A stretch of DNA of 64,000 nt, from NCBI GenBank assembly GCA_964187785.1, contig OZ076409.1:66156001-66220000 (forward strand), written 5' to 3'. This document shows positions 4,881 to 5,822 of the stretch, piece after piece (positions within the stretch are counted from its first letter, which is position 1; each line of letters begins with the position of its first letter). Under the pieces are notes generated by a model. It was not told the origin of the DNA. It ran no database searches and saw only the letters and a program-made list of their open reading frames with translations. The stretch comes from Amphiscolops sp. MND2022 (lineage: Eukaryota). The position numbers and the translations under genes were made by a program.

Positions 4881-5822
4881 TCAAAAAGGATGGGAAAAAG
4901 TTTTAGCACTAGGGATTTGGGGGAGAGGTTTTTCGAATTTGATTTGAATAATAACGGAGTCATCGTTTAGAAAAGCTTCTCTGAAGTTTGCTAGGAGTTT
5001 CGTGTGAGCAATAAAGTCTTCTCGTAGTAGTCCAGGGAGTGTGTATTCGTTGTTGTGGGTGCTGAAATGTTCGTTCATATTGGAGGTGAAGGGGAAAGAG
5101 GCAGACCATTTGTTGTCCTTGTTTTTCTGGTCAAGGAGAGCGATTTCTACTTTGCGGTCGAAAGGCCATGTTCGTGGAAGAGTGAAATCGCTAAGGTGGA
5201 GCTCACAGCAGATTGAAGTGTGAGTCCCTCGGAAAATGTTTACCCCGTATGGGAATATTCGGAAGGATATTTTGTAGCCGGTTAGGTGGGTGTTGTAGAT
5301 AGGGTTCGTGAAGCTATACTTCATGTGGTGAAGGGGATCATCAGGAGATGTTCGGGCCTTCCGGTAGAGAGTGGAAAATGCGGTAATTTGCCATAGGCAG
5401 GGGTCACTGCTTCTGTGGTCGATCGTGTTAACTTTGCCGAGGAGAGAGGCTTGGTGTTTGATGGTCGCTCGTAGATCTGAGGTACCAGTTTCTAACTGTA
5501 GGCGCTTTGTTTTTTCTTCTTCTACCGAGTTGCTGAGCTGTTTCTTTCGGCTTTCTAATTTCTGACGATGTTGGTAGATCTCGGTTATTGGGAATGATTT
5601 CTGTAAGGTAAAATTTGTCGATTTCTTGTGTTGGTTATTCGGGTTCGTTGATGATTCCCATTCGTCTATCCACTTGCTTAGTCTTTTTATTCCCTCTAAA
5701 GTCTCGTGTTCATCAGGGTCATCTGTTCTCGATATGGGTGGCCAGTCGTGGGTATGTTTAGTGGACGTAAGGGTACTTTGTGGGGTAAAGGGGATAGCGT
5801 TTGGGTTTAGCTTGCGATTCAT
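4881..5822 (-). CDS. TRAF-like protein (PAM2-like motif, coiled coil, MATH/TRAF-C domain) carried by element 1
   Basis: Intact 313-aa ORF with TRAF-C motifs LWQITAFS, GYKISFRIFPYG, GTHTSI, WPFDRKVEIALLDQ, FLNDDSVIIQI. N-terminus is KLNPNAIPFTP; no RING or zinc fingers. Confidence 0.85.
   Translation of the reverse strand: MNRKLNPNAIPFTPQSTLTSTKHTHDWPPISRTDDPDEHETLEGIKRLSKWIDEWESSTNPNNQHKKSTNFTLQKSFPITEIYQHRQKLESRKKQLSNSVEEEKTKRLQLETGTSDLRATIKHQASLLGKVNTIDHRSSDPCLWQITAFSTLYRKARTSPDDPLHHMKYSFTNPIYNTHLTGYKISFRIFPYGVNIFRGTHTSICCELHLSDFTLPRTWPFDRKVEIALLDQKNKDNKWSASFPFTSNMNEHFSTHNNEYTLPGLLREDFIAHTKLLANFREAFLNDDSVIIQIKFEKPLPQIPSAKTFSHPF

What the first reader, a model, noticed from the sequence alone, without database searches (positions are those of the whole stretch)
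4881..5822. Intact RING-less TRAF gene with a PAM2-like motif just before the 3' LTR
Seen: an intronless coiled coil plus MATH domain, still open while gag, pol and env are broken, starting KLNPNAIPFTP. Known: TRAFs lacking RING/zinc fingers act as dominant negatives, and PAM2 (LNPNAxxFxP) binds the PABP MLLE domain. Inference: a captured host signalling module used as an immune decoy, or as a trimeric adaptor linked to mRNA fate.
Basis: partly seen in the sequence, partly recalled or inferred. Interest (0 to 1): 0.85.

Follow-up and report, generated by a model that had tools for sequence, protein, structure and literature searches.

The report
Retroelement's captured TRAF with PABP hook
A virus-like jumping gene in this animal carries a spliced copy of a host signalling gene (a TRAF adaptor) as a standing extra gene kept by selection, and one branch has added a short tag that likely grips the cell's poly(A)-binding protein, which would link immune or stress signalling to mRNA control.

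Summary
Confirmed: window 5822-4881 (minus) is an intronless 313-aa ORF (PAM2-like start, long helix, TRAF-type MATH, no RING) 84 nt before the 3' LTR of an 18.6-kb env-carrying Ty3/gypsy element. It is not a one-off: 128 genomic matches, and more distant families (21-33% identity) keep a TRAF gene in the same slot, under purifying selection (dN/dS 0.14-0.20). The likely donor lineage is a spliced, apparently already RING-less host TRAF. The motif L-N-P-x-A-x-x-F-x-P is kept at the N-terminus in families only 31-35% identical, including proteins from another genome, but is absent from two other families; modelling with host PABP MLLE gave weak support only. Two corrections: that this ORF is open while gag, pol and env are broken is chance-level (p 0.2-0.3; 5 of 6 closest sisters are broken), and the classical receptor-binding groove is eroded, which weakens a plain decoy reading. 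TRAF/MATH in an LTR element is known (planarian Burro); a PAM2-TRAF accessory gene was not found in my searches. No expression or binding data. New variant of a known kind.

The parts
4881..5822 (-). TRAF-like accessory ORF, 313 aa, intronless, no RING or zinc finger
5781..5816 (-). PAM2-like motif, residues 3-14
   Evidence: weak complex support
5646..5717 (-). predicted helix, residues 36-59, conserved in the PAM2-bearing families of this genome, function unassigned
5418..5588 (-). predicted long helix, residues 79-135 (TRAF-N coiled coil); starts at the FP[IL] motif shared with the host gene
   Evidence: (11 of 17 a/d positions hydrophobic in the best of 7 registers)
4935..5399 (-). TRAF-C / MATH domain, residues 142-296, with a diverged beta6-beta7 loop
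5819..6422 (-). ORFX, unknown protein, broken in this copy by two frame changes; its stop overlaps the TRAF start (ATGA)
   Evidence: no family hit
6423..6433 (-). predicted splice acceptor (pyrimidine tract + AG) directly before ORFX
   Evidence: same arrangement in 7 of 8 other elements shown
6458..8607 (-). env, Monjiviricetes-type fusion glycoprotein, broken
10377..11090 (+). antisense acidic ORF between pol and env, with counterparts in sister subfamilies
11764..17263 (-). pol in the order protease, RT/RNase H, integrase; broken
17218..18670 (-). gag, broken
19697..19714 (-). primer-binding-site-like sequence starting TGG, 3 nt inside the 5' LTR end; tRNA not assigned
19718..21483 (-). 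5' LTR, TG...CA
4797..4808 (-). polypurine-tract-like sequence
2889..4796 (-). 3' LTR, 97.3% identical to the 5' LTR over 1,764 aligned nt, with a 49-nt tandem array
2885..2888 (+). 4-nt target-site duplication (second copy at 21484-21487)

Best explanation
[quoted passage not shown] Shown: domain content, fixed position after env and ORFX, many copies, selection, kinship to the spliced host gene, motif conservation (about 0.95). Inferred: translation from a spliced subgenomic RNA by stop-start coupling to ORFX (about 0.6); trimer (about 0.8, by family knowledge); PABP binding (about 0.7); sequestration of host TRAF signalling as the purpose (about 0.45). Because the receptor groove is eroded in this clade, capture of the host partner would most likely go through the coiled coil (mixed trimers with the host TRAF) and not through classical receptor motifs.
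For: Same slot in 10 of 10 elements mapped, from three TRAF clades, RT about 59-93% identical, plus a fourth clade. dN/dS 0.137-0.201 in 6 of 6 subfamily pairs. Spliced host gene at G000:C3:90.87 Mb shares the FP[IL]..N.K helix motif and the MATH type with element TRAFs, most closely with family B; element copies run through its intron positions without introns. A branch with SH-aLRT 96-98 separates canonical TRAFs from element TRAFs plus this host type. PAM2: 7 of 10 motif columns invariant in five subfamilies against 1 of 12 next to it, with synonymous changes in its Leu, Pro, Ala and Phe codons; kept in the 33%-identical family and in 51 of 61 N-terminally complete relatives from elsewhere; 41 of 46 PAM2-profile matches in the genome are these gene starts, at scores near two host motifs. 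Complex with host PABP MLLE: 0.37, best control 0.02, weak support; the mark was reached by 51 of 78 solved and 2 of 108 mismatched pairs, but at 0.60 or under by only 5 of 78 solved and all 4 passing mismatches of 180; runs agree in at least 89% of contacts, partner pLDDT at least 54; a textbook pair, so it may pass from memory. Precedent: recruitment of TRAF2 into stress granules partly suppresses NF-kB signalling (PMC7552005, passages); TRAF1 forms mixed trimers with TRAF2 (PMC4858697, passages).
Against: No expression, binding or phenotype data. PAM2 scores stay under the Pfam cut-off in whole-protein scans (12.5-16.3 bits where reported; no hit listed for 2 of the 9 motif-bearing proteins). 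Families B and C do well without the motif, so it is not essential. The AU test does not reject a tree with this clade among canonical TRAFs (p 0.49), nor show one origin for all element TRAFs (p 0.41); the clade sits on a long branch. Only R393, F447 and F456 equivalents of 10 TRAF2 contact residues are identical, and the FxRP loop kept by the host gene and families B and C is lost. The coiled coil is strongly diverged from the host's, so mixed trimers are uncertain. The element context of the relatives from other genomes was not seen.
Confidence: 0.45

Rival explanations
1. RNA-fate tool: in this clade the TRAF part serves mainly as a trimer scaffold, and three PAM2 tags compete with eRF3, deadenylase adaptors or silencing factors for PABP, which would stabilise the element's RNA (about 7 kb of 3' sequence follow the pol stop) or blunt host silencing.
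For: The receptor groove is eroded just in the window's PAM2-bearing clade; all PAM2 proteins compete for one site and avidity helps (10.64898/2026.01.10.698208, passages); element PAM2 starts outnumber host motifs in the genome search.
Against: MATH is still under strong constraint (dN/dS 0.10-0.15); PAM2-bearing relatives from elsewhere keep the FxRP loop; no RNA-binding part that would give specificity for element RNA was found.
Confidence: 0.25
2. Ligase adaptor: the PAM2-like tag recruits the MLLE domain of the HECT ligase UBR5, standing in for a RING, so that partners bound by the TRAF part are ubiquitinated and degraded.
For: The genome has exactly two MLLE matches; the second lies in a HECT-type gene read as UBR5 by eye, with its own PAM2-like stretch of similar form. 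UBR5 binds Paip2 through MLLE and degrades it (PMC11326040, passages).
Against: UBR5 MLLE binds PAM2 more weakly than PABP MLLE; not modelled here.
Confidence: 0.12
3. Plain dominant-negative decoy as first proposed: the protein occupies receptor tails or poisons host TRAF trimers, and the N-terminal motif is incidental or has another partner.
For: Families B and C keep a TRAF gene without the motif; PAM2 score below cut-off; complex support weak.
Against: The motif keeps the PAM2 anchor spacing across families 31-35% identical while its neighbours change; receptor-contact residues are mostly lost in this clade.
Confidence: 0.15
4. Neutral passenger: a host fragment carried along without function.
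For: In dead copies the ORF decays like the other genes; it is the fastest-changing known gene of the element (dN 0.21-0.31 against 0.02-0.05 for RT and env).
Against: dN/dS well below 1 in all subfamily pairs; open frame in 25 of the 30 best copies; same slot over deep divergence.
Confidence: 0.03

Closest known systems
Burro / GYPSM1 giant gypsy elements of planarians (PMC6431247, section 7 read)
   Same: Gypsy-like LTR element with an env related to mononegaviral fusion proteins that carries MATH_TRAF_C, in one species as a separate accessory ORF; proposed to meddle with apoptosis and ubiquitin systems.
   Different: Burro has MATH inside a 4,873-aa polyprotein or upstream, env between gag and pol, and BIR, BCL2 and ankyrin parts. 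Here TRAF is a stand-alone gene after env and ORFX, with a full coiled coil and a PAM2-like tag; no PAM2 is mentioned in that section.
Env-carrying Ty3/gypsy 'errantiviruses' of metazoans (PMC13524379: abstract, section 5 part 1, passages, 7 supplements searched)
   Same: gag-pol-env order, LTRs, PBS, many near-identical copies.
   Different: Three extra ORFs (antisense ORF, ORFX, TRAF); TRAF and MATH do not occur in that paper's text or searched supplements.
TRAF1 (PMC4858697, passages)
   Same: RING-less coiled coil plus TRAF-C; the host donor here also begins with a single zinc-finger-like stretch.
   Different: Not an orthologue by the tree; receptor hot spots not kept; TRAF1 has no PAM2 to my knowledge (recalled).
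Megalocytivirus viral TRAF, ISKNV ORF111L (PMC3352826, title and passages; fold hits)
   Same: Virus-borne TRAF of about 300 aa captured from a host.
   Different: Large DNA virus; reported with a RING; binds TRADD and induces apoptosis, so viral TRAFs need not be inhibitors.
Cellular PAM2 proteins such as eRF3, PAIP2, ataxin-2, TNRC6
   Same: Leu and Phe anchors seven residues apart in a low-confidence, likely disordered segment.
   Different: Joined to a TRAF trimer on a mobile element; Pro in place of the usual Glu before Phe (usual residue recalled, not from a call).

Membership tests
TRAF-domain proteins | TRAF-C (MATH) beta-sandwich of TRAF type | tested here: met
TRAF-domain proteins | TRAF-N coiled coil directly before TRAF-C | tested here: met
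   predicted helix 79-135, heptad pattern; prediction only
TRAF-domain proteins | trimer formation | not tested
   the single complex job went to PAM2-MLLE
canonical TRAF2/3/5/6 ligases | N-terminal RING and zinc fingers | tested here: not met
   no hit at E up to 1
TRAF1/2/3/5 receptor adaptors | hot-spot residues for Px(Q/E)E motifs | tested here: not met
   3 of 10 TRAF2 residues identical, serine triad and C469 absent; alignment in the beta6-beta7 loop is uncertain
PAM2 motif | Leu3 and Phe10 anchors at the right spacing | tested here: met
   Leu5 and Phe12; anchors named
PAM2 motif | Pfam PF07145 gathering score 20 | tested here: inconclusive
   16.3 bits in the protein scan; 19.6, or 20 with neighbours, in the genome search
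PAM2 motif | conserved above its flanks, in a disordered region | tested here: met
PAM2 motif | binds an MLLE domain | tested here: inconclusive
   model score 0.37, best control 0.02, weak; no experiment
env-carrying Ty3/gypsy element | LTRs with TG...CA, target-site duplication, PBS, PPT | tested here: met
env-carrying Ty3/gypsy element | pol order protease, RT/RNase H, integrase | tested here: met
   motif order read; integrase C-terminal families
env-carrying Ty3/gypsy element | env-like fusion gene after pol | tested here: met
   PF24664, E 2e-9 and 9e-8 in the window, 5e-31 in a sister
env-carrying Ty3/gypsy element | gB-type fold of env and placement in a pol tree | not tested
   gB-type label rests on recalled knowledge of the Pfam family
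Burro elements | giant single polyprotein with env between gag and pol | tested here: not met

The most novel reading that the evidence does not exclude
A clade of animal env-carrying retrotransposons has built a new protein from two host parts: a TRAF trimer that presents three PAM2 tags, coupling TRAF signalling to poly(A)-binding protein, kept across several families and at least two genomes and evolving about ten times faster than RT and env as a counter-defence factor; a mobile-element PAM2 mimic not found in my literature searches.
Probability: 0.5. Interest if true: 0.85.

Novelty: new variant of a known kind. Interest (0 to 1): 0.7.

Why it matters
Accessory genes of invertebrate retrovirus-like elements are little described. 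Here the donor gene, the intronless captured copies, families with and without the added tag, and an apparent second capture by a DNA element all lie in one genome, so the gain of function can be traced and tested. If the tag binds PABP, it shows an element imitating a core mRNA-control motif and points to which host pathway (a RING-less TRAF, stress granules, poly(A) control) restricts such elements in this animal. It also warns that large 'TRAF expansions' counted in such genomes can be element cargo: 150 of 150 scored MATH matches were returned from 440 candidates, and 14 of the 16 top loci I opened were element-type copies.

Tried and rejected
RNA evidence: no RNA holder was listed for a young sister copy; this says nothing on expression, and no reads were laid. 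Special preservation of the ORF in this copy: rejected as chance-level. Domesticated host gene: rejected; it lies inside a full element with many copies. RING loss by the element: not supported; no RING or zinc-finger-array match to 8 canonical TRAF queries within about 34 kb upstream of the host gene, though its first exon frame is open further upstream, so an upstream exon is not excluded. The one zf-TRAF locus of the genome has RING and zinc fingers, but no MATH match was found in about 40 kb downstream; left open. The careful tree did not finish; quick trees were used; AU tests were inconclusive. ORFX: no Pfam or Atlas hit. Atlas on the TRAF protein gave only generic MATH/TRAF clusters. 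Earlier findings of the scan: none. Literature searches for prior description; only Burro came up. Subscription journals and Repbase-type records are not covered, and bioRxiv supplements were not visible.

Full report
1. The observation. Window 5822-4881 (minus) translates to 313 aa from ATG to stop. Pfam finds a TRAF-type MATH domain (PF21355 E 3.1e-12; PF22486 E 4.4e-12) and a sub-threshold PAM2 hit at residues 2-16 (16.3 bits, cut-off 20), and no RING or zinc finger. All 23 PDB sequence matches are TRAF1-5. An AlphaFold model built on a 39-sequence alignment (mean pLDDT 76.5, pTM 0.55) shows a low-confidence N-terminus, helices 36-59 and 79-135 and the MATH strands 142-296; Foldseek ranks TRAF5, TRAF4 and TRAF1 first (E 8e-11 to 3e-10).

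2. The element. The ORF lies in a full-length element on the minus strand, 21483-2889, with TG...CA LTRs 97.3% identical, a 4-nt target-site duplication, a PBS-like and a PPT-like sequence. The order is gag, pol (protease, RT/RNase H, integrase), an antisense ORF, env (PF24664), ORFX, TRAF, then 84 nt to the 3' LTR. ORFX has no start codon in this clade but follows a pyrimidine tract and AG in the window and in 7 of 8 other elements shown; its stop overlaps the TRAF ATG (ATGA) in the window and 5 of 5 PAM2-bearing elements shown, and lies a few bases before the ATG in families B and C. I infer a spliced subgenomic RNA with stop-start coupling; this is untested.

3. Is the intact frame special? 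No. Against the open-frame proteins of a young sister copy, the window copy has 2 frame changes in gag, 1 frame change and 4-7 stops in pol, 2 frame changes and 1-2 stops in env, and 2 frame changes in ORFX: 12-16 breaks in 9,744 nt, so a 939-nt gene escapes with probability 0.21-0.31 (hand arithmetic). Of the 6 closest sisters (77-93% identity) 1 has an unbroken frame. Selection acted in replicating lineages, not demonstrably on this copy.

4. The family. A genome search gave 128 matches (127 of 526 candidates scored); 25 of the 30 best loci, the window included, have an unbroken frame. A MATH-profile search returned 150 further matches from 440 candidates. All 10 elements mapped over 20 kb have paired LTRs and a TRAF gene after env, including families B and C with RT about 59% and TRAF 21-23% identical to the window; a fourth clade has RT 72% and TRAF 33%. 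Between four subfamilies dN/dS is 0.137-0.201 in 6 of 6 pairs (dS 1.2-2.3, near saturation, so approximate); dN is 0.21-0.31 against 0.023-0.033 for RT and 0.026-0.050 for env. The window element is a mosaic relative to one sister: 82-96% nucleotide identity over gag-pol and env, 70-72% over TRAF, which suggests swapping of the 3' module.

5. The donor. A spliced gene at G000:C3:90.87 Mb (L109) has four visible exons: a short one ending in the start of a zinc-finger-like stretch, a helical exon, a MATH exon and a last-strand exon. Its helical exon shares an FP[IL]..N.K motif with element TRAFs, nearly residue for residue with family B and more weakly with the window's clade. No RING match was found upstream, and a relative from elsewhere (P0064) begins at the same zinc-finger-like stretch. 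Quick trees of the MATH domain put element TRAFs and this host type on one side of a branch with SH-aLRT 96-98, canonical TRAFs and a second host MATH exon on the other. Against this: AU tests neither reject the window's long-branch clade among canonical TRAFs (p 0.49) nor establish one origin of all element TRAFs (p 0.41). Capture through a spliced mRNA follows from the missing introns.

6. The PAM2-like motif. In five subfamilies 7 of 10 motif columns are invariant, against 0 of 3 before, 1 of 12 after and 38 of 126 over residues 15-140; codons for Leu, Pro, Ala and Phe vary synonymously. A strict pattern hit 9 times in 1.27 million translated residues of held loci, each at a TRAF start; a loose one 18 times, 11 at TRAF starts. 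The 33%-identical family keeps it at its very start. P0043 is not encoded by this genome (best 34%); of 116 newly listed relatives of it, 61 cover the N-terminus and 51 of these match the pattern, in two distinct families, while 0 of the 55 others do. Their element context was not seen; high copy numbers and one env-MATH chimera (P0062) suggest it. The PAM2 profile over the whole genome gave 46 matches from 70 candidates; 41 are these gene starts (38 by coordinates, 1 by translation, 2 beside ORFX matches), scoring 17-24 bits next to two host motifs at 23-24. Families B and C lack the motif, and PAM2-bearing clades group together with support 85-86 in two of three trees (not), consistent with one later gain. 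The complex of residues 1-34 with host PABP MLLE scored 0.37 against a best control of 0.02: weak support, with the calibration limits given in the best explanation; peptides are untested in that calibration.

7. The receptor groove. Of 10 TRAF2 contact residues (PMC6125299, passages), the equivalents of R393, F447 and F456 are identical (the last only in this copy), Y395 and L432 are conservatively changed, and F410, the serine triad and C469 are not kept. The FxRP loop kept by canonical TRAFs, the host gene, family B and the outside relatives (FKKP in family C) is lost in the window's clade. A decoy for classical receptor motifs is therefore unlikely for this protein.

8. Mechanism. The most economical history is: capture of a RING-less host TRAF to interfere with its pathway; later gain of a PAM2 tag; erosion of the groove in this clade. 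I commit to a trimeric adaptor tethered to PABP that draws host TRAF partners into mRNA granules (0.45), with an RNA-fate role (0.25), a plain decoy (0.15), UBR5 recruitment (0.12) and a neutral passenger (0.03) as rivals. Supporting precedent comes from passages only: TRAF2 in stress granules (PMC7552005), TRAF1 mixed trimers (PMC4858697), PAM2 competition and avidity (10.64898/2026.01.10.698208), UBR5 MLLE (PMC11326040).

9. Comparison and novelty. MATH_TRAF_C in a gypsy element is on record for planarian Burro elements (PMC6431247, section read), and viral TRAFs for megalocytiviruses (PMC3352826). The recent survey of env-carrying gypsy elements does not contain the words TRAF, MATH domain or PAM2 in text or searched supplements (PMC13524379). 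Six searches found no PAM2-TRAF fusion or mobile-element PAM2 mimic in the held library. Verdict: real, selected, new variant of a known kind; interest 0.7, limited by the lack of expression and binding data.

Noticed in passing
L125-L131 (G000:C2:40.62-40.64 Mb, C1:103.76-103.78 Mb, C1:78.43-78.45 Mb); L094-L105: A second multi-copy family carries the same host-type TRAF in the middle of large inverted-repeat DNA elements (arms of 3.7-5.2 kb, 98-99.6% alike), with the frame ending where the host gene has its last intron: likely an independent capture by a foldback-type element.
   Followed up: partly
window 5819-6422 (-): ORFX: acidic/proline-rich start, basic middle and a conserved 70-aa C-terminal domain, 150 matches scored of 368 candidates in the genome, no Pfam or Atlas hit; probably a spliced exon, possibly an RNA-export type accessory protein (guess).
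   Followed up: partly
window 10377-11090 (+): Antisense acidic ORF between pol and env with counterparts in sister subfamilies; no useful Pfam hit.
   Followed up: partly
window 8675-8775 and 8843-8943: A 101-nt direct repeat (89%) just upstream of env.
   Followed up: no
window 3509-4224 and 20336-20855: 49-nt tandem array inside both LTRs with different copy numbers; sister families have other unit lengths.
   Followed up: no
L072:1863-2147 (-): A PAM2-like stretch in an exon upstream of the second MLLE/HECT gene, of the same form as the element motif.
   Followed up: no
L074-L076 (G000:C10:42.09 Mb): The only zf-TRAF match in the genome: a spliced RING plus zinc-finger gene with no MATH match in about 40 kb downstream.
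   Followed up: partly
window 32964-50265 and 54563-64000: Two further broken gypsy-type elements; the second ends in an ORF at 63048-63821 that looks env-like by eye, not tested.
   Followed up: no
window 996-2474, 21633-22247, 25560-26201, 29276-30254, 44625-45602, 48054-49305: A dispersed repeat family in direct and inverted orientation, also present in introns of L109.
   Followed up: no
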